64,000 nucleotides of DNA, taken from IMG/VR virus record IMGVR_UViG_2875703104_000004. One strand, written 5' to 3'. The position numbers were made by a program, and so were the translations under genes. Under the pieces are notes generated by a model. It did not search any database, was not told where the DNA came from, and saw only the letters and a list, made by a program, of their open reading frames with translations. This DNA is from a virus. Lineage: Duplodnaviria > Heunggongvirae > Uroviricota > Caudoviricetes. Positions 1-58,548 of the stretch are shown one piece after another; within the stretch, counting starts at the first letter, position 1; every line of letters begins with the position of its first letter.

Positions 1-1244
1 ACGGAAACCACGCAGTTATTCCGTACGCGTTTTAAAGCCGTGAGTCCGAAACGGGTGGACACGCCTGGACACGGTATGGGGAACCGTTTTCTGCGGGCCG
101 GTGTGGAGGTCGATCGATATGGCCGTGCCGTCGCGTACCATATCTGTGAGGATGATTTTCCGTTCTCTGGTAGTGGACGATGGGAACGGATCCCGCGTGA
201 ACTTCCCACCGGGCGTCCGGCCATGCTGCATATTTTCGAGCCGGTGGAGGACGGGCAGACCCGTGGGGCTAATCAGTTTTACAGCGTCATGGAACGGCTG
301 AAGATGCTCGATTCCCTGCAGGCAACACAGCTTCAGTCGGCCATAGTGAAGGCGATGTATGCAGCGACGATTGAAAGTGAACTTGATACCGAAAAGGCCT
401 TTGAATATATCGCCGGCGCGCCACAGGAGCAGAAGGATAATCCGCTTATTAATATTCTGGAGAAGTTCTCCAGCTGGTATGACACGAATAACGTGACACT
501 GGGCGGTGTCAAAATTCCGCACCTTTTCCCTGGTGATGATCTGAAACTACAGACTGCGCAGGATTCAGACAATGGATTTTCTGCGCTTGAACAGGCGCTG
601 CTGCGGTATATCGCCGCCGGTCTTGGCGTTTCCTACGAACAGTTGTCCCGTGATTACTCGAAGGTCAGTTACTCAAGTGCCCGCGCCTCCGCCAATGAGT
701 CGTGGAACAGGCGCTGCTGCGGTATATCGCCGCCGGTCTTGGCGTTTCCTACGAACAGTTGTCCCGTGATTACTCGAAGGTCAGTTACTCAAGTGCCCGC
801 GCCTCCGCCAATGAGTCGTGGCGCTATTTTATGGGGCGGCGAAAATTTATTGCGGCCCGGCTGGCCACGCAGATGTTTTCCTGCTGGCTGGAAGAGGCAC
901 TTCTTCGGGGGATTATTCGTCCGCCACGGGCACGTTTTGATTTTTATCAGGCGCGATCAGCCTGGTCACGGGCAGAGTGGATTGGTGCCGGAAGAATGGC
1001 CATTGACGGGCTCAAGGAAGTCCAGGAATCAGTGATGCGCATTGAGGCCGGACTGAGCACGTATGAGAAAGAGCTGGCGCTGATGGGCGAGGATTATCAG
1101 GACATTTTCCGCCAGCAGGTCAGGGAATCTGCTGAGCGGCAAAAAGCCGGACTCTCACGTCCGGTGTGGATAGAGCAGGCGTATCAGCAGCAGATAGCGG
1201 AGAGTCGTAGGCCGGAAGAGGAGACAACACCACGTGAGACGTAA
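1..1244 (+). pseudogene. B: portal protein (lambda gpB-like), 5' end outside window, frame broken by a 116-bp tandem duplication
   Basis: Translation matches lambda-type portal (..RFLRAGVEVDRYGRAVAYHICEDDF.., C-terminal ..RMAIDGLKEVQESVMRIEAGLSTYEKELA..); N- and C-terminal parts lie in different frames (ORFs 40..1035 and 702..1244). Confidence 0.8.
589..820. repeat. perfect tandem direct duplication, 2 x 116 bp, inside portal gene
   Basis: Unit starting gaacaggcgctgctgcggtatatcgcc occurs at 589-704 and again at 705-820; 116 is not a multiple of 3. Confidence 0.9.
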
Positions 1245-15974: not shown

Positions 15975-16799
15975 ATGGCAGTACAGATTTCAGGCGTGCT
16001 GAAAGACGGTGCAGGAAAACCGATACAGAACTGCACCATTCAGCTCAAAGCAAAACGTAACAGCACCACGGTTGTGGTGAACACGGTGGCCTCAGAAAAT
16101 CCGGATGAAGCCGGACGTTACAGCATGGATGTCGAGTATGGCCAGTACAGCGTTATCCTGCTGGTTGAAGGTTTTCCGCCTTCACATGCCGGGGCCATCA
16201 CCGTGTATGAGGATTCTAAGCCGGGGACATTGAATGATTTTCTGGGCGCTGCAACAGAAGATGATGTTCGTCCGGAGGCACTGTATCGTTTTGAAAAGAT
16301 GGTGGAAGAGGTGGCACGCAACGCTGAAGCCGCCTCTCAGAGCGCAGCGGCAGCAAAGAAATCAGAAACAGCAGCGGCATCGTCCAGGAATGCGGCGAAA
16401 ACATCAGAGACGAATGCAGGTAACAGCGCGAAAGCGGCAGCTTCTTCAAAAACAGCCGCACAAAACGCAGCAACAGCGGCAGAACGTTCAGAGACAAATG
16501 CCCGTGCGTCAGAAGAAGCCTCCGCAGACAGTGAAGAGGCTTCCCGCCGTAATGCAGAGTCAGCCGCTGAAAATGCCGGAGTCGCCACCACAAAAGCGCG
16601 GGAGGCCGCAGCAGACGCAACAAAGGCCGGGCAGAAAAAGGATGAGGCTCTGTCGGCAGCGATAATTAAAAACGATGCACACCGGGTTTTTACCGCGTTA
16701 ATGATTCGCGGGTTTATCCCGGTGCGATGGTGGAAGAAACAGGAAGCTGTATTACAGAAAGTGCTACTACTGTATCCCGATGCGATGTATGTAATGTGA
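15975..16799 (+). pseudogene. stf: side tail fibre protein, N-terminal fragment only
   Basis: Starts MAVQISGVLKDGAGKPIQNCTIQLKAKRNSTTVVVNTVASENPDEAGRYSMDVEYGQYSV with Ala/Ser-rich repeats; ORF ends after ~275 codons in unrelated sequence. Confidence 0.7.
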
Positions 16800-16881
16800 G
16801 TCAGATAATGGCACAGGATGTGGTGATGTGGCAGTCTGGAACACAGGATATATTGTCAGAATAAGACCCGTAGGAATAAAA

Positions 16882-17208
16882 ATGAAAAGACGCCTTTTAC
16901 TACTTTTTCTGTTATCTGTCCTGGCAGTGGGATGCTCGCAGCAAAAAGCTGATGAGCCCCGGCAATTAGTGACGGTGTATCCACGATATCCGGAATATGC
17001 TGCAGCAAATTATATCAAGGGGCTGGTTGAGGTTAAGTTCGATATTGGTGCTGATGGGACTGTGACACGGATCGTTTTTCTCCGCTCAGAGCCTCATAAT
17101 TTGTTTCGTGATGAAGTGGTGAAGGCCATGGCGAAATGGCGATTTGAAAAGAATCGCCCCTGTCAGGGAGTGAAGAGACAATTTATCTTTACGCCGTCAC
17201 GTCCTTGA
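16882..17208 (+). CDS. small lipoprotein with TonB C-terminal-like domain
   Basis: MKRRLLLLFLLSVLAVGCSQ is a signal peptide with lipobox; the rest (YP.YP..A....G.VEVKF.I.ADG.V..I....S.......EV..A...WRF) fits the TonB_C pattern. Confidence 0.6.
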   Translation: MKRRLLLLFLLSVLAVGCSQQKADEPRQLVTVYPRYPEYAAANYIKGLVEVKFDIGADGTVTRIVFLRSEPHNLFRDEVVKAMAKWRFEKNRPCQGVKRQFIFTPSRP

Positions 17209-17300
17209 TGCTTCCAGGTAGAGAGGGGCTGGANGCAGGAGAAAAATGAAAGAGCCAGCGGTTATATTTTTGTCATGGCTGACGAGGAATGATGGAAGAA

Positions 17301-17323
17301 GGCGTTGTATGCCACACAACGCC
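17301..17323. terminator. hairpin between convergent genes (possible bidirectional terminator)
   Basis: ggcgttgt-atgccac-acaacgcc, a perfect 8-bp stem flanked by T-rich sequence on both strands. Confidence 0.45.
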
Positions 17324-17330
17324 TCACTGT

Positions 17331-17823
17331 TCATTTCTTCTTTTTCTCTGGTGGAACCCGATGAATAAGAGTTGCACTGGTTTCCGATGAGATGGCGATA
17401 TACTCGGGCAAAGTATGCTGGCAGTTTTCCAACTGGTCAAAAATACCTGCTCTCGTCTGTTGCAATGCCTGCAGCATGCGGCGGCAATGCGCCTTGCTTT
17501 TACTAACCATCTTTCCTTCCTCTATCAGTCGCTGCGTGAACTCATCATGNAATACCAGGTAAATGCGGATGTTATCGGTTTTGGCTACGCAGCATAGTAC
17601 AAAACGGACAGGTGCATCCCGGGACGGGGGAGGCGTCACATGTCCCTGTGATGGTTGTTCCGGGTAATGNACTGTGTGGGGCATAAAAATGTCCGATAAT
17701 TTTACTTTCTACCGCAGTTAGTTGATTCGTTGGTCCTGGTAGCACATTGGGCGAGGATTTAAATGCCAGGCAACTGAAGGATGATGTNGCAAGGGAGATA
17801 GCGAGAATATTTCTGATTTTCAT
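17331..17823 (-). CDS. candidate secreted protein gene(s); frame uncertain because of ambiguous bases
   Basis: Minus-strand ORF from ATG 17823 begins MKIRNILAISL.TSSFSCLA (signal-peptide-like) with several Cys; an overlapping ORF 17331..17684 continues in another frame; n bases at 17550, 17670 and 17788. Confidence 0.3.
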
Positions 17824-17838
17824 TTGATGATGCCTCTG

Positions 17839-18138
17839 TGTGAAATGACGGTAAACGACGCACTTGTGCCGGCACATAATAGCAAGCACCATAATAGATC
17901 AGATTCGATTCTTGCTGTAAGTGATAATTATTCTCGTTTTCGGGTCCTTTCCGTCGATCCAACAGGTTACGGGGCGGCGACCTCGCGGTGTGAAATGACG
18001 GTAAACGACGCACTTGTGCCGGCACATAATAGCAAGCACCATAATAGATCAGATTCGATTCTTGCTGTAAGTGATAATTATTCTCGTTTTCGGGTCCTTT
18101 CCGTCGATCCAACAGGTTACGGGGCGGCGACCTCGCGG
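17839..18138. repeat. tandem duplication (2 x 150 bp) of the phage right-end / cosQ-cosN segment
   Basis: tgtgaaatgacggtaaacgacgcac...ggttacggggcggcgacctcgcgg occurs at 17839-17988 and 17989-18138; each copy ends in a cosN-like GGGCGGCGACCT. Confidence 0.85.
18122..18133 (+). other. cosN-like cohesive-end sequence GGGCGGCGACCT (second copy at 17972-17983)
   Basis: Followed by CGCGGGTTTTCGCTATTTATGAAAATTTT and the Nu1 gene, the arrangement remembered for the lambda left end. Confidence 0.75.
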
Positions 18139-18302
18139 GTTTTCGCTATTTATGAAAATTTTTAGGGAAAAATCAGATCCGTTTTTCTTCTTTTTAACTG
18201 ATTGATTATCAATAGAATTTTAAAAATATAAAAGGATCTAACAAAGGCTGTTTTTGTTAGAAAACGCCATTTTCAGATCCTTTCTGGTTCCCGGGGGAGT
18301 GT

Positions 18303-18851
18303 ATGAACGTCAATAAGAAAAAACTGGCCGATATTTTTGGCGTTGATGTCAGGACCATCACCGCCTGGCAGAGTCAGGGGTTACCACTAGTTTCTGGTGG
18401 AGGGAAAGGGACTGAATCAGTTTTTGATACAACTGCTGCCATTCAGTGGTATGCGCAGAGGGAAGCTGATATTAAAAACGAAAAACTCCGTAAAGAGATC
18501 GAGGATTTGAGGGCTGCCAGCGAATCAGACCTTCAGCCCGGCACCATTGATTACGAACGTTACCGACTGACGAAGGCACAGGCCGATGCACAGGAGCTGA
18601 AAAATGCTCGTGAGGAAGGCCTTGTCCTCGAGACGGAGTTATTTACCTACATCTTTCAGCGAGTGGCACAGAATATATCAGGGATCCTTGTCCGTGTCCC
18701 TCAGACACTGCAGCGTAAATACCCTGATATATCACCCGTACATCTTGATGCTGTGAAAACTGAAATCGCGAAAGCATCCGATGTGGCTTCTGAAGCCGGT
18801 GAGAATGTGCGCAGGTGGATTGATGATTTCAGACGAACTGAGGGCGGCTAA
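18303..18851 (+). CDS. Nu1: terminase small subunit (lambda Nu1-like)
   Basis: 182-aa ORF with N-terminal winged-[27 protein letters not shown] and conserved [25 protein letters not shown]. Confidence 0.9.
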
Positions 18852-20751
18852 TTCTGCAGGAGCGATAGCAACCGGCCTCCTTGCGCTAAAAATTCCTGTC
18901 CCTCTGACGACAGTTCAGTGGGCAGATCGACATTATTACCTTCCGAAAGAGTCATCTTACACCCCGGGGCGGTGGGAAACACTGCCGTTTCAGGTTGCCA
19001 TCATGAACAGCATGGGGAATGACCGGATCCGCACTGTTAATCTGATTAAATCTGCCCGTGTTGGTTATACAAAGATGTTGCTGGGAGTGGAGGCTTATTT
19101 TATTGAGCATAAATCACGCAACAGCCTTCTTTTCCAGCCCACGGATTCTGCTGCTGAAGATTTTATGAAATCTCATGTGGAACCCACGATCAGGGATGTG
19201 CCGGTTTTACTCGATCTTGCACCGTGGTTTGGGCGTAAACATCGTGATAATACCCTCACGCTGAAACGTTTTTCATCGGGCGTGGGCTTCTGGTGCCTGG
19301 GCGGGGCTGCCGCTAAAAACTACCGTGAAAAATCCGTGGACGTGGTCTGCTATGACGAACTTTCCTCGTTCGAACCGGATGTCGAAAAAGAGGGTTCGCC
19401 AACCCTGCTTGGGGATAAACGTATTGAGGGCTCGGTATGGCCAAAATCCATTCGCGGCTCGACGCCTAAAATAAAAGGCTCCTGCCAGATCGAAAAAGCG
19501 GCCAACGAGTCGGCGCATTTCATGCGTTTTTATGTGCCCTGCCCACACTGTGGGGAGGAGCAGTATCTGAAATTTGGCGATGAATCCACGCCTTTTGGCC
19601 TTAAATGGGAGAAAGACAGCCCCGAAAGCGTTTTCTACCTCTGTGAACATCATGGCTGCGTGATCCATCAGTCTGAGCTTGACCAGAGCAACGGGCGGTG
19701 GATCTGTGAAAACACGGGGATGTGGACCCGTGACGGTCTGACGTTTTTCAGCGCCGCGGATAATGAAATTCCGCCGCCGCGCTCCATCACGTTCCATATC
19801 TGGACGGCGTACAGTCCGTTCACCACCTGGGTACAGATAGTCTATGACTGGCTGGATGCACTGAAAGATCCCAACGGCCTGAAAACCTTTGTGAACACCA
19901 CGCTGGGCGAGACCTGGGAAGAGGCCGTGGGCGAAAAACTCGATCACCAGGTACTGATGGATAAGGTCGTGCATTACACGGCGGCGGTGCCAGCCCGGGT
20001 GGTTTATCTGACGGCGGGCATTGACTCGCAGCGAAACCGTTTTGAGATGTATGTCTGGGGATGGGCACCGGGAGAGGAAGCTTTTCTGGTGGATAAAATC
20101 ATCATTATGGGCCGTCCCGATGAGGAAGAGACGCTGTTACGTGTGGATGCGGCGATCAACAAAAAATACTGCCATGCAGACGGAACCGAAATGACCATTT
20201 CCCGTGTCTGCTGGGACACCGGGGGGATCGATGGTGAAATTGTCTATCAGAGGTCAAAAAAACACGGTGTTTTCCGGGTGCTGCCGGTAAAAGGTGCATC
20301 TGTTTATGGCAAGCCGGTGATCACCATGCCAAAAACCCGCAATCAGCGGGGCGTGTATCTGTGCGAAGTGGGGACGGACACCGCAAAAGAAATTCTCTAT
20401 GCCCGTATGAAAGCCGATCCCACGCCTGCGGATGAAGCCACGTCGTATGCCATCCGTTTTCCTGATGATCCGGAGATTTTTTCGCAGACAGAGGCGCAGC
20501 AACTGGTGGCGGAAGAGCTTGTGGAGAAGTGGGAAAAAGGAAAGATGCGTCTGCTGTGGGATAACAAAAAGCGGCGTAACGAAGCGCTGGACTGCCTGGT
20601 GTATGCCTATGCGGCATTACGTGTGTCCGTGCAACGCTGGCAGCTTGATCTGGCTGTACTGGCAAAATCCCGGGAAGAAGAGACGACCCGGCCAACCCTT
20701 AAAGAACTGGCAGCGAAGCTGTCCGGAGGAGTGAATGGTTACAGTCGCTGA
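18823..20751 (+). CDS. A: terminase large subunit (lambda gpA-like)
   Basis: ORF overlapping the Nu1 stop; motifs [37 protein letters not shown] and WDTGGID fit lambda A. Confidence 0.9.
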
Positions 20752-20941
20752 ACTACAGGCGCTGCGTCAGGCGCGCCTTGATTTATTAACCGGTAAACGG
20801 GTGGTGTCTGTCCAGAAAGATGGTCGCAGAATTGAATATACGGCGGCCTCTCTGGATGAGCTTAACCGTGCGATCAATGATGCTGAGTTGGTACTGGGGA
20901 CAACCCGCCGTCGCCGTCGTCCGCTGGGAGTGAGGTTATGA
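20735..20941 (+). CDS. W: head-tail joining protein W
   Basis: 68-aa ORF with LTGKRVVSVQKDGRRIEYTAASL; overlaps the A stop and the B start. Confidence 0.8.
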   Translation: MVTVAELQALRQARLDLLTGKRVVSVQKDGRRIEYTAASLDELNRAINDAELVLGTTRRRRRPLGVRL

Positions 20942-22646
20942 AACGAACGCCTGTCCTGATTGATGTGAACGGCGTTCCGCTTCGGGAGAGCCTCAGCTAC
21001 AACGGGGGCGGCGCAGGATTTGGCGGGCAAATGGCGGAGTGGTTGCCACCGGCGCAGAGTGCCGATGCGGCCCTGCTGCCCGCGTTGCGTCTGGGGAATG
21101 CCCGGGCAGATGATCTGGTGCGCAATAACGGGATAGCGGCCAATGCGGTGGCCCTGCATAAGGATCACATTGTCGGGCATATGTTTCTTATCAGCTACCG
21201 CCCGAACTGGCGCTGGCTGGGGATGCGGGAGACCGCGACAAAAAGTTTTGTCGATGAGGTGGAGGCGGCCTGGTCAGAATACGCAGAAGGGATGTTTGGT
21301 GAGATCGACGTGGAAGGGAAACGCACGTTTACGGAATTTATCCGTGAAGGTGTGGGCGTTCATGCGTTTAACGGCGAAATCTTTGTGCAGCCGGTCTGGG
21401 ATACGGAGAGCACGCAACTGTTTCGTACGCGTTTTAAAGCCGTGAGTCCGAAACGGGTGGACACGCCAGGACACGGTATCGGGAACCGTTTTCTGCGGGC
21501 CGGTGTGGAGGTTGATCGATATGGCCGTGCCGTTGCGTACCATATCTGTGAGGATGATTTTCCTCGCTCCGGGAGTGGACGATGGGAACGGATCCCGCGT
21601 GAACTTCCCACCGGGCGTCCGGCCATGCTGCATATTTTCGAGCCGGTGGAGGACGGGCAGACCCGTGGGGCCAACCAGTTTTACAGCGTCATGGAACGGC
21701 TGAAGATGCTCGATTCCCTGCAGGCAACACAGCTTCAGTCGGCCATTGTCAAGGCGATGTATGCAGCGACAATTGAAAGTGAACTGGATACCGAAAAGGC
21801 CTTTGAATATATCGCCGGTGCGCCGCAGGGGCAGAAGGATAATCCGCTTATTAATATTCTGGAGAAGTTCTCCAGCTGGTATGACACGAATAACGTGACG
21901 CTGGGCGGTGTCAAAATTCCGCACCTTTTCCCTGGTGATGATCTGAAACTACAGACAGCGCAGGATTCAGACAATGGATTTTCTGCGCTTGAACAGGCGC
22001 TGCTGCGGTATATCGCCGCCGGTCTTGGCGTTTCCTACGAACAGTTGTCCCGTGATTACTCGAAGGTCAGTTACTCAAGTGCCCGCGCCTCCGCCAATGA
22101 GTCGTGGAACAGGCGCTGCTGCGGTATATCGCCGCCGGTCTTGGCGTTTCCTACGAACAGTTGTCCCGTGATTACTCGAAGGTCAGTTACTCAAGTGCCC
22201 GCGCCTCCGCCAATGAGTCGTGGCGCTATTTTATGGGGCGGCGAAAATTTATTGCGTCCCGGCTGGCCACGCAGATGTTTTCCTGCTGGCTGGAAGAGGC
22301 ACTTCTGCGGGGGATTATCCGTCCGCCACGGGCACGTTTTGATTTTTATCAGGCGCGTTCAGCCTGGTCACGGGCTGAGTGGATTGGTGCCGGAAGAATG
22401 GCCATTGACGGGCTCAAGGAGGTTCAGGAATCGGTGATGCGTATTGATTCCGGACTGAGCACGTATGAGAAAGAGCTGGCGCTGATGGGCGAGGATTATC
22501 AGGACATTTTCCGCCAGCAGGTCAGGGAATCTGCAGAGCGGGAAAAAGCCGGACTCTCACGTCCGGTGTGGATAGCGCAGGCGTATCAGCAGCAGATAGC
22601 GGAGAGTCGCAGGCCGGAAGAGGAGACAACACCACGTGAGACGTAA
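20938..22646 (+). pseudogene. B: portal protein (lambda gpB-like), frame broken by the same 116-bp tandem duplication
   Basis: ORF 20938..22437 plus C-terminal ORF 22104..22646 in another frame; paralogue of 1..1244. Confidence 0.8.
21991..22222. repeat. tandem direct duplication, 2 x 116 bp, same sequence as 589-820
   Basis: gaacaggcgctgctgcgg...gagtcgtg at 21991-22106 and 22107-22222. Confidence 0.9.
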
Positions 22647-24689
22647 TCTTTCACACATTATTGCAGCAGCATTCAATGAACCGCTGCTTCTGGAGCCCGC
22701 CTATGCGCGGGTTTTCTTTTGCGCGCTCGGGCGCGAGATGGGGGCAGCAAGTCTTTCGGTACCGCAACAGCAGGTACAGCTTGATGCTCCCGGGATGCTG
22801 GCTGAAACGGACGAGTACATGGCCGGAGGTAAACGACCGGCCCGTGTTTACCGGGTGGTGAACGGTATTGCGGTACTGCCGGTGACCGGCACGCTGGTGC
22901 ACCGGCTGGGGGGGATGCGGCCATTTTCCGGAATGACTGGCTATGACGGCATTGTCGCCTGTCTTCAGCAGGCAATGGCAGATAGCCAGGTGCGGGGCAT
23001 ACTGCTGGACATTGACAGTCCGGGCGGGCAGGCCGCCGGCGCGTTTGACTGCGTTGACATGATTTACCGCCTCCGGCAGCAGAAGCCGGTCTGGGCACTG
23101 TGCAATGACACGGCCTGTTCTGCAGCCATGCTGCTGGCGTCGGCCTGCTCCCGACGGCTGGTTACCCAGACATCCCGTATCGGCTCCATTGGCGTGATGA
23201 TGAGCCATGTCAGCTATGCCGGTCATCTGGCGCAGGCCGGTGTGGATATCACGCTGATTTACTCAGGGGCGCACAAGGTGGATGGCAATCAGNGGTGCAC
23301 CGGCTGGGTGGTATGCGGCCATTTTCCGGAATGACAGGCTATGACGGCATTGTCGCCTGTCTTCAGCAGGCAATGGCGGATAGCCAGGTGCGGGGCGTAC
23401 TGCTGGACATTGACAGTCCGGGCGGGCAGGCCGCCGGCGCGTTTGACTGCGCTGACATGATTTACCGCCTCCGTCAGCAGAAGCCGGTCTGGGCACTGTG
23501 CAATGACACGGCCTGTTCTGCAGCCATGCTGCTGGCGTCGGCCTGCTCCCGACGGCTGGTTACCCAGACATCCCGTATCGGCTCCATTGGCGTGATGATG
23601 AGCCATGTCAGCTATGCCGGTCATCTGGCGCAGGCCGGTGTGGATATCACGCTGATTTANNCNGGGGCGCACAAGGTGGATGGCAATCAGTTTGAAGCGT
23701 TGCCGGCAGAGGTTCGCCAGGACATGCAGCAGCGGATTGATGCGGCGCGCCGGATGTTTGCCGAAAAAGTGGCGATGTATACCGGTCTGTCTGTTGATGC
23801 CGTCACGGGAACAGAGGCTGCCGTTTTTGAAGGTCAGTCCGGCATTGAGGCCGGGCTGGCGGATGAATTAATCAATGCGTCGGATGCCATCAGTGTGATG
23901 GCCACGGCGCTGAACAGTAATGTCAGAGGAGGCACTATGCCGCAATTAACTGCAACGGAAGCCGCCGCTGCCGTTTTTGAAGGTCAGTCCGGCATTGAGG
24001 CCGGGCTGGCGGATGAATTAATCAATGCGTCGGATGCCATCAGTGTGATGGCCACGGCGCTGAACAGTAATGTCAGAGGAGGCACTATGCCGCAATTAAC
24101 TGCAACGGAAGCCGCCGTGCAGGAGAACCAGCGAGTGATGGGGATCCTGACATGCCAGGAAGCGAAAGGACGTGAACAGCTTGCCACGATGCTGGCAGGG
24201 CAACAGGGCATGAGCGTTGAACAGGCCCGGGCGATTCTGGCCGCGGCGGCACCGCAGCAGCCGGTGGCATCCGCACAGAGTGAAGCCGATCGCATTATGG
24301 CGTGTGAAGAAGCGAACGGTCGTGAACAACTGGCAGCAACGCTGGCGGCGATGCCGGAGAGGACGGTGGAAAAAGCCCGCCCGATCCTGGCTGCTTCACC
24401 GCAGGCGAATGCCGGGCCCTCACTTCGTGATCAGATCATGGCACTGGATGAGGCAAAAGGGGCTGAGGCGCAGGCTGAACAGCTGGCTGCCTGCCCGGGA
24501 ATGACTGTGGAGAGCGCCCGGGCTGTGCTGGCTGCGGGATCAGGTAAGGCAGAACCGGTCTCTGCATCCACAACCGCCCTGTTTGAACATTTCATGGCGA
24601 ACCATTCACCGGCTGCGGTCCAGGGGGGCGTGTCACAGGCGTCAGAAGACGGTGATGCGGACGTGAAAATGCTCATGGCCATGCCATGA
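22636..24689 (+). CDS. C: prohead protease / scaffold (gpC-like), second copy, with internal duplications
   Basis: Same motifs as 1234..2739; frame interrupted at n 23293 where 22896-23292 is repeated at 23294-23690; additional in-frame 150-bp tandem duplication at 23821-24120. Confidence 0.7.
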
Positions 24690-29525: not shown

Positions 29526-32217
29526 TCTTGTTATTGACCTGAGTCTGGATGCTGTCCGTTTCGATGAGCAGATGAGCCGGGTAAGGCGTCATTTTTCAGG
29601 TCTGGATACCGACGCCAGAAAAACCGCCAGTGCTGTTGAACAGGGCCTGAGCCGCCAGGCGCTGGCTGCACAAAAAGCCGGGATTTCCGTCGGGCAGTAT
29701 AAAGCGGCCATGCGAACCCTGCCCGCACAGTTTACGGATATCGCCACGCAGCTTGCCGGTGGTCAGAATCCCTGGCTGATCCTGCTGCAACAGGGCGGTC
29801 AGGTGAAGGACTCCTTCGGCGGGATGATCCCCATGTTCAGGGGGCTTGCCGGTGCGATCACCCTGCCGATGGTCGGGGTCACCTCGCTGGCGGTGGCGAC
29901 AGGTGCGCTGGTGTACGCCTGGTACCAGGGAGATTCCACGCTTTCAGCGTTTAATAAAACCCTGGTTCTTTCCGGTAATCAGTCCGGACTGACTGCCGAT
30001 CGCATGCTGACGCTCTCCAGAGCCGGACAGGCCGCAGGGCTGACGTTTAACCAGGCGAGTGAGTCACTGGCAGCCCTGGTGAATGCCGGTGTGCGTGGTG
30101 GTGAACAGTTTGATGCCATCAACCAGAGTGTCGCGCGTTTTGCTTCTGCATCCGGTGTGGAGGTGGACAAGGTTGCAGAGGCTTTCGGAAAACTGACCAC
30201 TGACCCGACGTCGGGGCTGATTGCGATGGCGAAGCAGTTCCATAACGTGACGGCGGAGCAGATTGCGTATGTTGCTCAGTTGCAGCGTTCCGGCGATGAA
30301 GCCGGGGCATTGCAGGCGGCGAACGAGGCCGCAACGAAAGGGTTTGATGACCAGACCCGACGCTTGAAAGAGAACATGGGCACGCTGGAAACCTGGGCAG
30401 ACAGGACAGCACGGGCATTCAAATCCATGTGGGATGCGGTGCTGGATATTGGTCGTCCTGATACCGCGCAGGAGATGCTGATTAAGGCAGAGGCCGCGTT
30501 TAAGAAAGCGGACGATATCTGGAATCTGCGCAAGGATGATTATTTTGTTAACGATGAAGCGCGGGCGCGTTACTGGGATGATCGTGAAAAGGCCCGTCTT
30601 GCGCTTGAAGCCGCCCGAAAGAAGGCTGAGCAGCAGAGTCAACAGGACAAAAATGCGCAGCAGCAGAGCGATACCGAAGCGTCACGGCTGAAATATACCG
30701 AAGAGGCGCAGAAGGCTTACGAACGGCTGCAGACGCCGCTGGAGAAATATACCGCCCGTCAGGAAGAACTGAACAAGGCACTGAAAGACGGGAAAATCCT
30801 GCAGGCGGATTACAACACGCTGATGGCGGCGGCGAAAAAGGATTATGAAGCGACGCTGAAAAAGCCGAAACAGTCCGGCGTGAAGGTGTCTGCGGGCGAT
30901 CGTCAGGAAGACAGTGCTCATGCTGCCCTGCTGACGCTTCAGGCNGAACTCCGGACGCTGGAGAAGCATGCCGGAGCAAATGAGAAAATCAGCCAGCAGC
31001 GCCGGGATTTGTGGAAGGCGGAGAGTCAGTTCGCGGTACTGGAGGAGGCGGCGCAACGTCGCCAGCTGTCTGCACAGGAGAAATCCCTGCTGGCGCATAA
31101 AGATGAGACGCTGGAGTACAAACGCCAGCTGGCTGCACTTGGCGACAAGGTTACGTATCAGGAGCGCCTGAACGCGCTGGCGCAGCAGGCGGATAAATTC
31201 GCACAGCAGCAACGGGCAANNNNNNNNNNNNNNNNNNNNNTGGCGCATAAAGATGAGACGCTGGAGTACAAACGCCAGCTGGCTGCACTTGGCGACAAGG
31301 TTACGTATCAGGAGCGCCTGAACGCGCTGGCGCAGCAGGCGGATAAATTCGCACAGCAGCAACGGGCAAAACGGGCCGCCATTGATGCGAAAAGCCGGGG
31401 GCTGACTGACCGGCAGGCAGAACGGGAAGCCACGGAACAGCGCCTGAAGGAACAGTATGGCGATAATCCGCTGGCGCTGAATAACGTCATGTCAGAGCAG
31501 AAAAAGACCTGGGCGGCTGAAGACCTGCTTCGCGGGAACTGGATGGCAGGCCTCAGGTCCGGCTGGAGTGAGTGGGAAGAGAGTGCCACGGACAGTATGT
31601 CGCAGGTAAAAAGTGCAGCCACGCAGACCTTTGACGGTATTGCACAGAATATGGCAGCGATGCTGACCGGCAGCGAACAGAACTGGCGTGGTTTCACCCG
31701 TTCTGTGCTGTCCATGCTGACAGAGATTTTTCTGAAGCAGGCGATGGTGGGGATTGTCGGGAGTATCGGCAGCGCTATTGGCGGGGCTGTTGGTGGCGGC
31801 GCATCCGCGTCAGGCGGTACAGCCATTCAGGCCGCTGCGGCGAAATTCCATTTTGCAACCGGAGGATTTACGGGAACCGGCGGCAAATATGAGCCAGCGG
31901 GGATTGTTCACCGTGGTGAATTTGTCTTCACGAAGGAGGCAACCAGCCGGATTGGTGTCGGCAACCTGTATCGTCTGATGCGCGGGTATGCGGAAGGTGG
32001 TTATGTCGGCGGTGCCGGAAGTCCGGCGCAGATGCGGCGGGCCGAAGGTATTAATTTTAATCAGAACAATCACGTGGTGATTCAGAACGACGGTATCAAC
32101 GGACAGGCGGGGTCGCAGCTGATGAAGGCGGTGTATGACATGGCCCGCAAGGGGGCACAGGATGAACTCCGGCTGCAGTTGCGTGATGGCGGTCTGTTAT
32201 CAGGGAGCGGTCGATGA
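29506..32217 (+). CDS. H: tail tape measure protein H (contains an N-run and a redundant block)
   Basis: 903-aa ORF paralogous to 7558..10054; N-run at 31220-31240 flanked by duplicated ~132-bp blocks. Confidence 0.8.
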   Translation: MSQPVGDLVIDLSLDAVRFDEQMSRVRRHFSGLDTDARKTASAVEQGLSRQALAAQKAGISVGQYKAAMRTLPAQFTDIATQLAGGQNPWLILLQQGGQVKDSFGGMIPMFRGLAGAITLPMVGVTSLAVATGALVYAWYQGDSTLSAFNKTLVLSGNQSGLTADRMLTLSRAGQAAGLTFNQASESLAALVNAGVRGGEQFDAINQSVARFASASGVEVDKVAEAFGKLTTDPTSGLIAMAKQFHNVTAEQIAYVAQLQRSGDEAGALQAANEAATKGFDDQTRRLKENMGTLETWADRTARAFKSMWDAVLDIGRPDTAQEMLIKAEAAFKKADDIWNLRKDDYFVNDEARARYWDDREKARLALEAARKKAEQQSQQDKNAQQQSDTEASRLKYTEEAQKAYERLQTPLEKYTARQEELNKALKDGKILQADYNTLMAAAKKDYEATLKKPKQSGVKVSAGDRQEDSAHAALLTLQXELRTLEKHAGANEKISQQRRDLWKAESQFAVLEEAAQRRQLSAQEKSLLAHKDETLEYKRQLAALGDKVTYQERLNALAQQADKFAQQQRAXXXXXXXXAHKDETLEYKRQLAALGDKVTYQERLNALAQQADKFAQQQRAKRAAIDAKSRGLTDRQAEREATEQRLKEQYGDNPLALNNVMSEQKKTWAAEDLLRGNWMAGLRSGWSEWEESATDSMSQVKSAATQTFDGIAQNMAAMLTGSEQNWRGFTRSVLSMLTEIFLKQAMVGIVGSIGSAIGGAVGGGASASGGTAIQAAAAKFHFATGGFTGTGGKYEPAGIVHRGEFVFTKEATSRIGVGNLYRLMRGYAEGGYVGGAGSPAQMRRAEGINFNQNNHVVIQNDGINGQAGSQLMKAVYDMARKGAQDELRLQLRDGGLLSGSGR

Positions 32218-33178: not shown

Positions 33179-33374
33179 ATCCCGGTTTATGAGGCAGTCT
33201 GTGTTATGTATCTTCTTTCGGGTGGGTACAGGGCAGTGCGCGATTTCTGGCGCAGGCAGATTGATAAAAGGGCCGCTGAGAGAATCAGCGCCAGTCAGTC
33301 AGCCGGAAGCAAACCCGAAGATCCGCTCATTCCGTAGTCACTTTCTTGACAACACCTTTCAACGAGAAAATCCC

Positions 33375-33620
33375 ATGTCAGAAATCACATCCCTGGTCAC
33401 TGCTGAGGCAGTGAAGGAAGTCCTGCGCTCTGAAGAAGTCCNGAGNGCACTGAAACAGAAACTCCGCCAGAACCTTGAGNCGCGTCTTGATGCAGAAGTG
33501 GATGCCATTCTGGATGAGCTGCTGGGCGTACCAGCGGTTCCGGAGCCGGAAGGTATCGCGGGTGACGGGAGTGCTTCAGATGGCGGTGAACCCACACCTG
33601 ACAGCGACATGATGATGTAA
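33375..33620 (+). CDS. hypothetical small acidic protein
   Basis: 82-codon ORF starting [17 protein letters not shown] with a strongly acidic C-terminus; contains ambiguous bases; no match recognised. Confidence 0.3.
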
Positions 33621-33696
33621 GCCTGCGCAAGGGACCATCGGTGTGTGCCGGTGGTCTTTATATTGTTGTGAGCTTCCGGATAACGGGAGACGGGGT

Positions 33697-34062
33697 ATGT
33701 ACCAGATGGAAAAAATCACAACAGGTGTGTCATACACCACGTCAGCGGTGGGAACGGGCTACTGGTTCCTGCAGTTGCTGGACAGGGTTTCCCCGTCTCA
33801 GTGGGCGGCAATAGGCGTGCTGGGGAGTCTGCTGTTTGNNNNNNNNNNNNNNNNNNNNNAAAAAATCACAACAGGTGTGTCATACACCACGTCAGCGGTG
33901 GGAACGGGCTACTGGTTCCTGCAGTTGCTGGACAGGGTTTCCCCGTCTCAGTGGGCGGCAATAGGCGTGCTGGGGAGTCTGCTGTTTGGGCTGCTGACAT
34001 ATCTGACTAACCTGTATTTCAAAATCAGAGAGGACCGGCGTAAGGCGGCGCGGGGAGAGTAA
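33697..34062 (+). CDS. S: class II holin / pinholin (phage 21 S-like); ORF inflated by a redundant block around an N-run
   Basis: [26 protein letters not shown]...[40 protein letters not shown]: two TM segments, charged C-terminus, dual-start M..M; 33711-33838 repeated after the N-run 33839-33859. Confidence 0.75.
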
Positions 34063-34066
34063 AGCG

Positions 34067-34417
34067 ATGAAGAAAAAATACGAACTGGTTGTTAAAGGGA
34101 TAAATAATTACCCGGATAAGATTACTGTTACTGTGGCACTGGAAGTTGGTGGGTATCCGTCACTGTTGTTGCCAGATGTGGCGATTAGTCTTGACCGTAC
34201 TGAAGGTGCCACGCTGGAGTTTTACGAAGCTGAGGCGAAAAAGCAGGCGAAGCAGTTTTTCATGGATGTTGCTGCCGGGTTATGTGAAGGGAACGAACCG
34301 TTGCCGGAAAAGCGCCCCGTGATTTTAGAGGCGCAGAATGTATGGATAACCTACAAAGGAAATCTACCGGGAAGAATTACTGGTTCTCTGAAGACTCCAC
34401 CGGAATCACAACCTTAA
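34067..34417 (+). CDS. hypothetical protein between holin and endolysin
   Basis: 116-aa ORF starting 5 bp after the holin stop; no signal peptide or TM segment; no family recognised. Confidence 0.5.
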   Translation: MKKKYELVVKGINNYPDKITVTVALEVGGYPSLLLPDVAISLDRTEGATLEFYEAEAKKQAKQFFMDVAAGLCEGNEPLPEKRPVILEAQNVWITYKGNLPGRITGSLKTPPESQP

Positions 34418-34480
34418 TTCACTGACCGGAACAGATAAACCTGTCCGTGGGCAGAAACCGATAAATCCTGATAAATATCC

Positions 34481-35014
34481 ATGAACGCAAAAATCAGATA
34501 CGGCCTGTCGGCTGCCGTTCTGGCGCTGATTGCCGCTGGTGCGCCTGCGCCTGACATTCTCGACCAGTTTCTGGATGAAAAGGAAGGTAACCACACCACG
34601 GCATACCGTGATGGTGCGGGGATCTGGACCATCTGCCGTGGTGCCATCATGGTGGATGGTAAACCTGTTGTTCCAGGCATGAAGTTGTCGAAGGCAAAAT
34701 GCGACCGGGTTAACGCCATTGAGCGTGATAAGGCGCTGGCATGGGTGGAGAAAAACATCAGAGTGCCACTGACCGAACCCCAGAAAGCGGGGATCGCGTC
34801 ATTCTGTCCGTACAACATTGGTCCCGGTAAGTGTTTCCCGTCGACGTTTTACAGACGAATTAATGCAGGTGATCGAAAAGGTGCCTGCGAAGCGATTCGC
34901 TGGTGGATTAAGGACGGTGGCAGAGACTGCCGTATTCGTTCAAACAACTGTTACGGTCAGGTATCCCGTCGCGACCAGGAGAGTGCGCTGGCGTGCTGGG
35001 GAATTGACAGATAA
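34481..35014 (+). CDS. R: SAR endolysin (T4-lysozyme-like, GH24)
   Basis: N-terminal weakly hydrophobic Ala/Gly-rich segment YGLSAAVLALIAAGAPAP; catalytic E-x8-D-x5-T in EGNHTTAYRDGAGIWT. Confidence 0.8.
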   Translation: MNAKIRYGLSAAVLALIAAGAPAPDILDQFLDEKEGNHTTAYRDGAGIWTICRGAIMVDGKPVVPGMKLSKAKCDRVNAIERDKALAWVEKNIRVPLTEPQKAGIASFCPYNIGPGKCFPSTFYRRINAGDRKGACEAIRWWIKDGGRDCRIRSNNCYGQVSRRDQESALACWGIDR

Positions 35015-35105
35015 GCAGAATATTTTGCTGAAAAATGCGGTTTGCTCACACGGACGGATAACACGAAATCCTGCGAACTGACAAAAACTAAGTGAATAAA
35101 AGTAA

Positions 35106-35140
35106 AAACCCCGTTTGTTGGCTGCAAGCGGGGTTTTGTG
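35106..35140 (+). terminator. terminator-like hairpin downstream of the endolysin
   Basis: aaccccg...cggggtt stem followed by TTTTGTGTTT. Confidence 0.4.
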
Positions 35141-35173
35141 TTTCCTGACTCTGGAAAAGTCAAAGGAGAAAGT

Positions 35174-35311
35174 GTGTTTGATTTTAGCAAACTGATTCGG
35201 GAGATTCGAGTGATGGCTGAAAAATTATCCACCTGGAAGTTCATTCTTATCTGGCTGGTGTTTGTGATTATGGCCTCCGGTTATTTCATCGGTCAGATAC
35301 GCTGGTGGTGA
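35174..35311 (+). CDS. hypothetical 45-aa single-pass membrane peptide
   Basis: GTG start 5 nt after [50 protein letters not shown]; stop 1 nt before the Rz ATG. Confidence 0.4.
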
Positions 35312-35312
35312 A

Positions 35313-35807
35313 ATGAACCGCGTACTGTGCGTGGTCATCATTGCCCTGCTGGTGGCCTGTGGTGCGCTTAGTCTGGGGCTGAATCATTACCGTGATAACG
35401 CCATAACCTACAAAGCCCAGCGCGACAAAAATGTCAGAGAACTGAAGCTGGCGAACGCGGCAATTACTGACATGCAGATGCGTCAGCGTGATGTTGCTGC
35501 GCTCGATGCAAAATACTCGAGGGAATTAGCCGATGCGAGAGCTGAAAATGAAACTCTTCGCGCTGACGTTGCCGCTGGTCGTAAGCGCCTGCGTATCAAC
35601 GCCACCTGTCCAGGTCCCGTGCGTGAAGCCACCGGTACCGCCCGCGTGGATAATGCAACCGGCCCCCAACTGGCAGACACCGCTGAACGGGATTATTTCA
35701 TCCTCAGAGAACGGCTGATGACAATGCAGAAGCAGCTGGAAGGGGCGCAGGAATATATCCGCACTCAGTGCACTAAGCTGGCTTTTTATTATCCGGAGGA
35801 TACATGA
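35313..35807 (+). CDS. Rz: i-spanin Rz
   Basis: N-terminal TM segment then [42 protein letters not shown], coiled-coil rich, as in lambda Rz. Confidence 0.85.
35533..35718 (+). CDS. Rz1: o-spanin Rz1, embedded in the +1 frame of Rz
   Basis: [15 protein letters not shown] lipobox, then Pro-rich [27 protein letters not shown]. Confidence 0.8.
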
Positions 35808-36028
35808 AGAAATTACGGGTAACCGTAGAACCTTTTCAGGGAACAATTCCGTTCCGTATTTTGCAGCGTGGTCGTGTTCTTGTTGAAGGTTCGTTCAGTG
35901 GTAAATGTACGCAATTACACTCCCGGACCTTTCAGGTGAATGCCACGAATGAAGAGCTAACCGTGGAGTGTACGATGAATGCCGCTAAATGCCGCATGGT
36001 ATCCGCTGCATTACAGCCAGTGTGTTGA
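35804..36028 (+). CDS. hypothetical protein overlapping the Rz stop
   Basis: 74-aa ORF whose ATG overlaps the Rz stop (ATGA); no signal peptide; no family recognised. Confidence 0.35.
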
Positions 36029-36226
36029 GCGACCTTATTATCCATGCGCGGTATTGTCGCCGTATTCCTGCATTAACAGAGACCGCAGCCCGACAGGGAG
36101 ACTCCTCTGCGCGAGTGTGCGGGGATAATCAAAAACGATACACACCGGGGTTTACCGCGTTAACGGAGCGCGGCGTTGTCCCCTCATAGTCGCCTGTCCG
36201 GTGCGATGGTGGAAGAAACCGAACGT

Positions 36227-36427
36227 TCATTTCTCGTTATTTGTCATGCTGGTCGGGCGCAGATGCGTTGCATCTGTTGCCAGCCTTCTCCTGCAGGCTT
36301 CAATAACCCACGCTGAAAAGTTACCGGACCCTTTATGCTCAAGGGCTATGTTGATTTGTTCAATTATGTGATTGGGGAAACGGATATTGCGGGTTGTGGT
36401 TCTGCGGGTCCGGTTTTTCGATGACAT
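36227..36427 (-). CDS. small basic protein, possible ribbon-helix-helix DNA-binding protein
   Basis: 66-aa ORF MSSKNRTRRTTTRNIRFPNHIIEQINIALEHKGSGNFSAWVIEACRRRL with AGGA RBS 7 nt upstream; divergent from the HNH gene. Confidence 0.35.
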   Translation of the reverse strand: MSSKNRTRRTTTRNIRFPNHIIEQINIALEHKGSGNFSAWVIEACRRRLATDATHLRPTSMTNNEK

Positions 36428-36468
36428 ATTTATTTCCTTTACTGATTGCCATATGACGGGGATTTTAC

Positions 36469-36834
36469 ATGGCTGAGCTTCGTACACTCCAGAGCAGAAT
36501 CAAAACACTGAATACCCGACGGGTGAATATTCTGAAGGGGGAACAGCGTCGTGTCAGTGGCAGTGCACGTGTTTCCCTCAAGCGTCATATCTGGCTGAGG
36601 GACGCCGGGCAGTGCTGTATCTGTGGTCGTGTGGTTGACCTCTGTGACAGTGAACTCGATCACCGAATTGCACTTCAGTTCGGTGGTGGTAATGAGGAGA
36701 CGAATCTCTGGACGCTCTGTACCGAATGCCATCGACAAAAGTCTGCTCGTGAAGCGGCGGGTGGTATGCCGGACCCGACGCTGCCGGAGGTGTCCGGAGG
36801 TAGTGACAGAGCGGACGACATCATCGGACTGTAA
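36469..36834 (+). CDS. HNH endonuclease, packaging-associated type
   Basis: CCICG..(n)..DHRIALQFGG..NLWTLCTECHRQK is an HNH zinc-finger nuclease motif; located immediately upstream of the terminase genes. Confidence 0.8.
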   Translation: MAELRTLQSRIKTLNTRRVNILKGEQRRVSGSARVSLKRHIWLRDAGQCCICGRVVDLCDSELDHRIALQFGGGNEETNLWTLCTECHRQKSAREAAGGMPDPTLPEVSGGSDRADDIIGL

Positions 36835-36926
36835 CCCGACCCGGGGGGGGTATCATCCGGCGTAAAAAACGATCGCTTTGGACACCGCGCCCCCTCTCAC
36901 GCAGAGAAAAAATTCCCGTTTCAGGG

Positions 36927-37052
36927 CAGTTAACATGTTAACTGGCTGCCCGGGCATTTTTGCGGTTTTTATCTTTATTATTCAGTTTGTTGTGCGGAAA
37001 AAATGTTAACAGGCTTTTTCAGCAAATGTTAACCAGGCAGCAGTTAACATTT
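36927..37052. promoter_or_regulatory. cluster of GTTAAC-containing repeats (candidate cos / terminase recognition region)
   Basis: 18-bp palindrome cagttaacatgttaactg at 36927-36944, aaatgttaac at about 37001 and 37024, inverted copy gttaacattt at about 37043. Confidence 0.45.
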
Positions 37053-37125
37053 GCGGCATGAGACGCCGGGGAAAAATGGGCTGAACCATACCCGGCTGAG
37101 TGCGTTCTGGACCCGGGAGGAGGCT

Positions 37126-37689
37126 GTGCTGACAACGCAAAAACGAAAATTTGCGCTGGCGCTCATGTCCGGGAAAAACAAAACAGCGTCAGCCATTGCC
37201 GCCGGTTATTCGGCGAAGACCGCCAGGGTTAAAGGCTCGCAGCTGGCAAAAGATCCGGAGGTGCTTGCGTTTATAGCCCGTAAACAATGCGAGACGGTGG
37301 AGGTGGATGAGGTTCCTGTTTACCGGCAGAAAAAATCAGAGCAGGAGGATAAACCCCGTCGCCGTGAGGCGGCTGCAATACCTCAGCCGGACGAAAATAA
37401 TCCGGAGATGCCACCGTCCGCGGTGATGTCTCCTGGTATTGAATATATGGAGGATGGTCTTCCCGATCCGGTGAAAGCCATGGGGCGGATCCTGGTGGAA
37501 AACCTCTGCATTGATCCGAAACTGGCACTGGATGCGGCCTGGCGTCTGGCGCAGTTCACGCACCATAAAAAAGGGGATACCGGGAAAAAATCGGCAAAAG
37601 GTGATGCCGCGAAAAAAGCGGCTAACCGTTTTGCGGTGCCACCGCCACCCCGACTGGTGGTGAATAACGATAATGAGGGCAACGGATGA
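37126..37689 (+). CDS. terminase small subunit
   Basis: GTG start after GGGAGGAGG; TTQKRKFALALMSGKNKTASAIAAGYSAKTARVKGSQLAKDPEV is the typical TerS HTH. Confidence 0.75.
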   Translation: MLTTQKRKFALALMSGKNKTASAIAAGYSAKTARVKGSQLAKDPEVLAFIARKQCETVEVDEVPVYRQKKSEQEDKPRRREAAAIPQPDENNPEMPPSAVMSPGIEYMEDGLPDPVKAMGRILVENLCIDPKLALDAAWRLAQFTHHKKGDTGKKSAKGDAAKKAANRFAVPPPPRLVVNNDNEGNG

Positions 37690-39347: not shown

Positions 39348-39372
39348 CCCTGCTCACCCTGTAACCATCATG

Positions 39373-39396
39373 AACCGCTGCGGCGGTTTTTTTTAT
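39373..39396 (+). terminator. rho-independent terminator after TerL
   Basis: aaccgc-tgcg-gcggtt hairpin followed by a T8 run. Confidence 0.55.
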
Positions 39397-39411
39397 TTTC
39401 AGGAGGCTGAT

Positions 39412-50219: not shown

Positions 50220-50553
50220 GATAAAAACGCTGCATCTGGTCCCGCGTGAAGGGATGCAGGTGAGTGAGAAACCGTCGGTGGTGAGGGTTCGGTTTGGTGA
50301 CGGTTATGAACAGCGCCGACCGACGGGACTTAATGCCAGACTGAAGACGTTTCAGGCGGTGTTCCGGGTGACGGATGAACCAACCCGGCGCTGGCTGGAT
50401 GAATTTTTATCCTGGCATGGTGGTTACCGTGCCTTTTTGTGGCGACCGCCGAAACATAACCGGACGGTGAGGGTGGTATGCCGGGAGTGGAGCGTCACAG
50501 ATAACGCCAGGTACAGTGATTTCAGTTGTACGATTGAGCAGGTGGTGAACTGA
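50212..50553 (+). CDS. M: minor tail protein M
   Basis: 113-aa ORF with FGDGYEQR, LNA.LKT and GGY.AFLW as in the other M copies. Confidence 0.8.
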   Translation: MAEIKTLHLVPREGMQVSEKPSVVRVRFGDGYEQRRPTGLNARLKTFQAVFRVTDEPTRRWLDEFLSWHGGYRAFLWRPPKHNRTVRVVCREWSVTDNARYSDFSCTIEQVVN

Positions 50554-52576: not shown

Positions 52577-52586
52577 ATCCCGGTTT

Positions 52587-58483: not shown

Positions 58484-58510
58484 ATTAGCCAGGTAACACA
58501 GTGTTATGAC

Positions 58511-58538
58511 AGCCCGCCGGTTCAGGCGGGCTTTTTTG
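58511..58538 (+). terminator. rho-independent terminator after lom
   Basis: agcccgcc-ggttca-ggcgggct plus TTTTTT. Confidence 0.6.
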
Positions 58539-58548
58539 TGGAGTGGAT

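What the first reader, a model, noticed from the sequence alone, without database searches (positions are those of the whole stretch)
17839..18138. Exact 150-bp tandem duplication of the phage right end, giving two cosN sites 150 bp apart
The last ~138 bp of the right arm plus GGGCGGCGACCT occur twice in tandem before the Nu1 gene. Two functional cos sites this close are not expected in a prophage. The 150-bp period equals that of the in-frame duplication in gene C at 23821-24120, which suggests a read-length-related assembly artefact; it could also reflect assembly from packaged linear or concatemeric phage DNA.
Basis: partly seen in the sequence, partly recalled or inferred. Interest (0 to 1): 0.5.

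Follow-up and report, generated by a model that had tools for sequence, protein, structure and literature searches.

The report
Assembly-artefact duplication at prophage cos site
The exact 150-base tandem repeat that seems to give this prophage two DNA-packaging cut sites is not biology: two assembly contigs that overlapped by 150 bases were pasted end to end instead of being merged, so there is almost certainly only one ordinary cos site.

Summary
Window 17838-18138 is an exact period-150 tandem duplication with GGGCGGCGACCT at 17972-17983 and 18122-18133. The unit is 134 nt of right arm + 12 nt cosN + 4 nt (CGCG), not about 138 + 12.

It is an assembly artefact.
- With one copy removed, window 16661-22107 equals the complete EcPF40 prophage, apart from four Ns.
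- No junction-spanning match turned up in 5,426 complete E. coli genomes or the phage records, and an exact junction 38-mer is absent from three contig collections.
- The piece left of the joint is a collapsed consensus of two co-resident lambdoid prophages. Its four Ns sit on the only four sites where the two types differ.
- That piece ends at the last base the two types share, 5 nt right of cosN, where cosB/Nu1 diverge.
- The prophage-specific piece starts 150 nt upstream of that point.
- A 151-mer shared/unique simulation reproduces this joint, the portal-gene joints and the gene C joint within 1 nt.
- Two 21-N runs flanked by 129-nt repeats also add exactly 150 nt.

Its "packaged DNA ends" alternative is not. 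Low interest.

The parts
16661..17988 (+). Left assembly piece. It is a collapsed consensus of the 1.33-kb pre-cos segment (TonB-like gene region, cosQ, cosN) shared by two co-resident lambdoid prophages. It ends at the last base the two types share.
   Evidence: It matches EcPF40 prophage L001 19262-20589 and Nissle-type prophage L003 3184-4511 equally well. The only differences are Ns at 17234, 17550, 17670 and 17788, which are exactly the only four L001/L003 differences in the segment. The chance of that is about 8e-12.
17838..17987 (+). Copy 1 of the 150-nt unit, the 3' end of the left piece. It is redundant: deleting either copy gives the same sequence.
   Evidence: It corresponds to L001 20439-20588.
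17988..18137 (+). Copy 2 of the 150-nt unit, the 5' end of the prophage-specific right piece.
17988..22107 (+). Right assembly piece, specific to the second prophage (cosB, Nu1-like gene, gpA-like gene, W, 5' part of the portal gene).
   Evidence: It has 0 mismatches to L001 20439-24558. The 151-mer simulation predicts a prophage-specific segment at L001 20440-24558, 4,119 nt.
17942..17948 (+). cosQ heptamer GGGTCCT in copy 1
   Evidence: Position transferred from the cosQ annotation of phage 21 OL657228 (42902-42908). The sequence is identical.
17972..17983 (+). cosN 12-mer in copy 1. It is followed by only 5 native bases and then the repeated right-arm sequence, with no cosB.
18092..18098 (+). 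cosQ heptamer GGGTCCT in copy 2, in the native context
18122..18133 (+). cosN 12-mer in copy 2, in the native context with cosB and Nu1 downstream
18171..18287 (+). Presumed cosB of the second prophage. Three AGATCC-core repeats lie at the positions and in the orientations of phage 21 R3 (18171-18186), R2 (18228-18243, inverted) and R1 (18271-18287), with the I1 position at 18195-18207. The sequences differ from phage 21.
   Evidence: Positions transferred from the OL657228 annotation. The repeats can be read directly. Function is inferred, not tested.
18303..18851 (+). Terminase small subunit gene (Nu1 family)
   Evidence: Pfam PF07471 Phage_Nu1, E = 7.9e-86. Annotated as terminase small subunit in EcPF40.
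18781..20751 (+). Terminase large subunit gene (gpA family). The ORF is listed from its first possible start codon.
   Evidence: Pfam GpA_ATPase and GpA_nuclease. EcPF40 annotation.

Best explanation
The duplication is an assembly artefact. The sequenced strain carries at least two lambdoid prophages with a nearly identical 1.33-kb segment ending in cosQ and cosN. They diverge 5 nt to the right of cosN, where the packaging-specificity module begins. One prophage has phage-21-type cosB and Nu1, and the other has a different cosB and Nu1. A graph-type short-read assembly, behaving like k = 151 or 151-nt reads, collapsed the shared segment into one contig. The four sites that differ between the prophages were written as N. 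That contig ends at the last shared base. The contig specific to the second prophage begins with the first 151-mer containing a distinguishing base, which is 150 nt upstream. The contigs were then chained into one record without trimming this 150-nt overlap, which created an exact tandem repeat and an apparent second cosN. The true prophage has one cos. Shown: single copy in relatives, piece boundaries, Ns on paralogue differences, and the arithmetic and simulation. Inferred: the kind of assembler, the value of k, and that the phage-21-type copy belongs to the first prophage of the window, whose own cos lies off the window.
For: 1) Thirty listed complete genomes match 17400-18700 at 99.8% but span 1151 nt rather than 1301 nt, and 83 genomes cover at least 80% of the query.
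2) A 52-nt junction probe whose halves are shorter than the megablast seed has no junction-spanning match in 5,426 complete E. coli genomes or 50,697 phage records. An exact junction 38-mer is absent from the viral, genome and metagenome contig collections. The unit itself occurs in 1,225 genomes, with a median of one place per genome.
3) Window 16661-17988 equals L001 19262-20589 except for 4 Ns. Window 17988-22107 equals L001 20439-24558 with 0 mismatches.
4) The 4 Ns coincide with the only 4 differences between the EcPF40-type and Nissle/phage-21-type segments. The next difference, L001 20590, is the base right after the unit.
5) The same rule holds at the portal joints in both prophages and at the gene C joint. 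A 151-mer shared/unique simulation reproduces these joints within 1 nt, including the 4,119-nt right piece.
6) The two N-run joints add 129 + 21 = 150 nt.
7) The 116-nt duplication frameshifts the portal gene (499 aa against 530 aa) and is identical in both prophages.
8) The window is demonstrably chimeric. A third prophage that lies about 190 kb away in EcPF40 interrupts the second prophage's tail genes, and a tail-fibre gene is joined bluntly to the pre-cos segment at 16661/16662.
Against: No reads are available, so the artefact is inferred from comparison and arithmetic and is not observed directly. This joint has no N, whereas some other joints do. The portal joint needs a 1-nt ambiguity (116 against the predicted 117). 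The complete genomes nearest to the second prophage carry the pre-cos segment once. The second copy, of phage-21 type, is therefore inferred from the Ns and from the Nissle-like first prophage; I did not see it in this strain. I did not identify the source record.
Confidence: 0.95

Rival explanations
1. The duplication is a genuine 150-bp tandem duplication in this strain's prophage, produced by replication slippage or unequal recombination. That would give cosQ-cosN twice, with only the second copy followed by cosB.
For: The sequence as deposited contains it, with no N at the joint. Tandem duplications do occur in nature, and a duplicated cosQ-cosN would be neutral in a resident prophage.
Against: No junction-spanning match was found in any of the five collections searched. 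The boundaries fall exactly where a 151-mer graph predicts contig ends. The left piece is a two-allele consensus that stops at the paralogue divergence point. At least five other joints in the same 64 kb add the same 150 nt or obey the same rule, including frameshifting duplications that are identical in two prophages.
Confidence: 0.03
2. The duplication reflects sequencing of packaged linear or concatemeric phage DNA. Under this reading, contigs ended at the cohesive ends and the terminal sequences were joined twice.
For: The joint lies within 5 nt of cosN, which looks non-random at first sight.
Against: Contig ends made by virion ends should fall at the cosN nicks. Here the unit starts 134 nt left of cosN and ends 4-5 nt right of it. 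The proximity to cosN is explained by the two prophages diverging there, where the cosB module starts. Identical overlap arithmetic occurs inside the portal and protease genes, where there are no DNA ends. The surroundings are a chain of prophage contigs, not a phage genome.
Confidence: 0.02

Closest known systems
Untrimmed k-1 overlaps between graph contigs at repeat boundaries, in draft assemblies concatenated into a pseudo-complete record
   Same: The overlap length is constant at 150 nt. The joints sit where paralogous repeats diverge. There are ambiguity codes at paralogue SNPs and chimeric ordering of prophage contigs. A published precedent for prophage contigs being artefactually concatenated in a 'complete' E. 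coli genome is NA114 (Forde et al. 2014, PMC4134206).
   Different: The source record and assembler are unidentified. NA114 is not indicated, because prophages 2 and 3 match the EcPF40/MCJCHV-1 lineage and prophage 1 matches the Nissle/CFT073 type. The paper describes misplaced contigs, not 150-nt overlap duplications.
cos site of coliphage 21 and lambda (cosQ, cosN, cosB: R3-I1-R2-R1)
   Same: The right arm, cosQ GGGTCCT and cosN GGGCGGCGACCT are identical to phage 21 over 233 nt, apart from one N. The Nu1 and gpA genes follow downstream.
   Different: The cosB repeats of the window's second prophage differ in sequence from those of phage 21. Copy 1 has no cosB at all.
Engineered tandem-cos lambda constructs used to study packaging termination
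   Same: Two cosN sites lie in direct orientation on one chromosome.
   Different: Those constructs are deliberate and carry complete cos sites. Here the second site is a pasting artefact.

Membership tests
Assembly artefact: unmerged contig overlap at a collapsed-repeat boundary | The duplication is absent from independent, near-identical assemblies | tested here: met
   All 30 listed near-identical complete genomes span 1151 nt for the 1301-nt query. There is no junction-spanning match in 5,426 E. coli genomes or the phage records, and the exact 38-mer is absent from three contig collections.
Assembly artefact: unmerged contig overlap at a collapsed-repeat boundary | The repeat boundaries coincide with predicted contig ends, where paralogous copies begin to differ, offset by k-1 | tested here: met
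   The first L001/L003 difference (20590) is the base after the unit, and the right piece starts 150 nt before it. The 151-mer simulation gives a shared segment ending at 20589 and a unique segment at 20440-24558.
Assembly artefact: unmerged contig overlap at a collapsed-repeat boundary | The same overlap length recurs at other joints of the same record | tested here: met
   Gene C has a 150-nt repeat. Two N-run joints add 129 + 21 = 150 nt. The portal joints follow 2 x 150 - 183 = 117, with 116 observed. A 150-nt repeat also occurs at 58158-58307 / 58970-59119.
Assembly artefact: unmerged contig overlap at a collapsed-repeat boundary | The flanking piece shows signs of repeat collapse, with ambiguity codes at paralogue differences | tested here: met
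   Four Ns fall on the only four variable sites out of 1,327. The chance of that is about 8e-12.
Assembly artefact: unmerged contig overlap at a collapsed-repeat boundary | No reads span the junction, and depth is doubled over the collapsed piece | not testable with these tools
   No reads are available.
Lambda/21-type cos site (applies to copy 2, 18092-18287) | The 12-nt cosN GGGCGGCGACCT | tested here: met
Lambda/21-type cos site (applies to copy 2, 18092-18287) | cosQ about 30 nt upstream of cosN | tested here: met
   GGGTCCT at 18092-18098, identical to the annotated cosQ of phage 21.
Lambda/21-type cos site (applies to copy 2, 18092-18287) | cosB with three small-subunit binding repeats (R3, R2 inverted, R1) and an IHF site between cosN and the Nu1 gene | tested here: inconclusive
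   Three AGATCC-core repeats lie in the expected positions and orientations. They differ from phage 21, and neither terminase binding nor the IHF site was tested.
Lambda/21-type cos site (applies to copy 2, 18092-18287) | Adjacent Nu1-family and gpA-family terminase genes | tested here: met
   PF07471, PF05876 and PF20454.
Lambda/21-type cos site (applies to copy 1, 17942-17987) | cosB to the right of cosN | tested here: not met
   cosN at 17972-17983 is followed by CGCGG and then the repeated right-arm sequence.

The most novel reading that the evidence does not exclude
The 150-bp duplication is really present in this strain. The prophage would then carry a tandem cosQ-cosN pair, with only the downstream copy attached to cosB. 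That would be a natural test case for how terminase chooses a termination site when two cosQ-cosN modules lie 150 bp apart.
Probability: 0.03. Interest if true: 0.3.

Novelty: not a real feature. Interest (0 to 1): 0.07.

Why it matters
It matters only as quality control. This 64-kb window is a chain of short-read contigs pasted together with untrimmed 150-nt overlaps, Ns at collapsed paralogue SNPs, and chimeric contig order. Any unusual feature found in it should be distrusted until checked against a clean assembly. That includes duplications, frameshifted portal or protease genes, two prophages abutting each other, and a prophage nested inside tail genes. The one biological point is minor. 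Co-resident lambdoid prophages share cosQ and cosN exactly and diverge a few bases to the right of cosN, where the cosB/Nu1 specificity module starts. That is why the assembler broke there.

Tried and rejected
1) A 100-nt junction query was uninformative. Its two halves matched the two ends of single-copy units and were reported as one two-piece place. I replaced it with a 52-nt probe whose halves are shorter than the megablast seed.

2) I first expected the second copy of the repeat to be the cos region of the ZH063 (ST131) prophage, whose portal gene matches the window's first prophage. Its cos region is only 93% alike over 99 nt, so it is not that copy. The Nissle/phage-21 type fits instead.

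3) I suspected the source was the misassembled genome NA114. I dropped this because prophages 2 and 3 are 100% identical to the EcPF40/MCJCHV-1 lineage and prophage 1 is Nissle/CFT073-like. The paper is cited only as a precedent.

4) I rejected the virion-end origin because the boundaries do not fall at the nick sites.

5) I did not find a complete genome carrying both prophage types together. Strain FAH (H28) has two places for the query, but I did not examine it.

Full report
**Observation.** Window 17838-18138 is an exact tandem repeat of period 150 (TRF: 2.0 copies, 100% matches, score 602). Copy 1 (17838-17987) is identical to copy 2 (17988-18137), and one further base matches. The lambda-type cohesive-end sequence GGGCGGCGACCT occurs only twice in the window, at 17972-17983 and 18122-18133. 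The unit is 134 nt of right arm, the 12-nt cosN and 4 nt beyond it (CGCG).

**What surrounds it.** The right arm is identical to that of coliphage 21 over 233 nt, apart from one N. This includes the annotated cosQ heptamer GGGTCCT (window 17942-17948 and 18092-18098). Downstream of copy 2 lie three AGATCC-core repeats at the positions and orientations of phage 21 R3, R2 and R1 (18171-18287). These are followed by a Nu1-family gene (18303-18851, PF07471, E = 8e-86) and a gpA-family gene. Copy 1 is followed by 5 native bases and then the repeated right arm, so it has no cosB.

**Comparison with clean assemblies.**
- The thirty listed complete E. coli genomes that match 17400-18700 at 99.8% all span 1151 nt, exactly 150 fewer than the query. 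In total, 83 genomes cover at least 80% of it.
- A 52-nt probe centred on the junction, with each half shorter than the megablast seed, finds no junction-spanning match in 5,426 complete genomes or in 50,697 phage records.
- An exact junction 38-mer is absent from the viral, species-representative genome and metagenome contig collections.
- The unit itself is common. It occurs in 1,225 genomes, with a median of one place per genome.

**Anatomy of the joint.** I compared the window with the complete prophage of strain EcPF40 (L001).
- Window 16661-17988 equals L001 19262-20589 except for four Ns.
- Window 17988-22107 equals L001 20439-24558 without a single mismatch.
- The window is therefore two pieces that overlap by 150 nt in the true sequence and were laid end to end.

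**The left piece is a collapsed repeat.**
- It matches a Nissle-1917-type prophage (L003) equally well. The cosB and Nu1 region of that prophage is identical to phage 21.
- Over these 1,327 nt the EcPF40 type and the Nissle type differ at only four positions.
- Those four positions are exactly the window's four Ns: 17234, 17550, 17670 and 17788. The chance of this is about 8e-12.
- The left piece is thus a collapsed consensus of two paralogous copies.
- The next difference between the two types is L001 20590, the base immediately after the unit. From there the two types diverge strongly, in cosB and the 5' end of Nu1.
- The right piece begins 150 nt before that base.

**The same rule holds elsewhere in the window.**
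- A 116-nt duplication sits in the portal gene and is identical in both prophages of the window (589-821 and 21991-22223). It lies centred in a 183-nt exact match between the two prophages. Each flanking piece runs 150 nt past its last distinguishing SNP.
- The 150-nt duplication in gene C starts 150 nt before the difference at L001 25905.
- The two 21-N runs are flanked by exact 129-nt repeats, and 129 + 21 = 150.
- I labelled the 151-mers of L001 as shared with, or unique against, L003. This yields a shared segment 20390-20589, a unique segment 20440-24558 (4,119 nt, which is the right piece), and next segments starting at 24442 and 25755. All the window's joints are matched within 1 nt.

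**Further signs of artefact.**
- The portal duplication frameshifts an essential gene (499 aa). Removing one copy restores the 530 aa seen in EcPF40.
- A third prophage, which lies about 190 kb from the second in EcPF40, is inserted within the second prophage's tail genes at window 33193-50534.
- The tail-fibre gene of the first prophage is joined bluntly to the pre-cos segment at 16661/16662.

**Why the break lies next to cosN.** It is not because DNA ends were sequenced. The two resident prophages share cosQ and cosN exactly and begin to differ 5 nt to the right of cosN, where the specificity module (cosB and the DNA-binding end of Nu1) starts. A virion-end origin would put the boundaries at the nicks, and it cannot explain identical arithmetic inside the portal and protease genes.

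**Verdict.** The feature is an untrimmed contig overlap and is not a real duplication (confidence about 0.95). The true locus is a single, ordinary lambda/21-type cos. I could not identify the source record. My initial guess of NA114 (Forde et al. 2014, PMC4134206) is not supported by the prophage content and is cited only as a published precedent. Reads or long-read data from the strain would settle the matter directly.

Noticed in passing
window 589-821 and 21991-22223: An identical exact 116-nt tandem duplication occurs in the portal genes of both prophages. It frameshifts the gene (499 aa against 530 aa). It is explained by the same overlap artefact around a 183-nt exact repeat shared by the two prophages.
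   Followed up: yes
window 23817-24120, and piece 23293-23968: The 150-nt in-frame duplication in gene C (S49 protease) is the same artefact. In addition, piece 23293-23968 is 100% of the first-prophage (Nissle) type, embedded in the second prophage and preceded by an N at 23293 and a 397-nt near-repeat (22896-23690, 97%).
   Followed up: yes
window 31220-31240 and 33839-33859: Two runs of 21 N are each flanked by exact 129-nt direct repeats. 129 + 21 = 150 extra nt, the same overlap length with part of one copy masked. Why exactly 21 bases are masked is unexplained.
   Followed up: partly
window 33193-50534: A block from a third prophage (lysis genes, terminase, portal, capsid, tape measure) is 100% identical to EcPF40 2091728-2109085. 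It is inserted within the second prophage's tail genes. In EcPF40 it lies about 190 kb away, so this is chimeric contig ordering at shared tail-gene repeats.
   Followed up: partly
window 16661/16662: There is a blunt joint between the first prophage's tail-fibre gene (L003 24415) and the pre-cos segment (L003 3184 / L001 19262). No attachment site, chromosomal DNA or early region lies between two prophage late regions, so this is another chimeric join.
   Followed up: partly
window 18171-18287: The second prophage shares cosQ and cosN with phage 21 but has different cosB repeats: an AGATCC core in R3, R2 (inverted) and R1 positions, and a different Nu1 N-terminus. It is possibly a packaging specificity distinct from those of lambda and 21. 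I did not check this against the literature.
   Followed up: no
window 9068 and 14326: Relative to the Nissle prophage, the first prophage lacks 64 nt (L003 16734-16797) and 22 nt (L003 22057-22078), in the tape-measure gene and gene J by the L003 annotation. These may be real indels or further joining errors.
   Followed up: no
window 50534-52704 and 58158-59993: There is a dense cluster of repeated pieces with single Ns at joints (50803, 51537, 52071) and eleven scattered Ns at 59120-59291 in the tail and tail-fibre region. A 633-nt segment also appears twice (50904-51536 = 52072-52704). This looks like several paralogous tail-gene contigs stacked one after another.
   Followed up: no
window 17572-17892, minus strand: An unannotated 106-aa ORF starts just left of the repeat (ATG at 17833 on the minus strand, reading MKIRNILAISL...) and looks like a signal-peptide protein. 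No gene is annotated at the corresponding stretch of EcPF40. Its 5' end abuts the duplicated unit.
   Followed up: no
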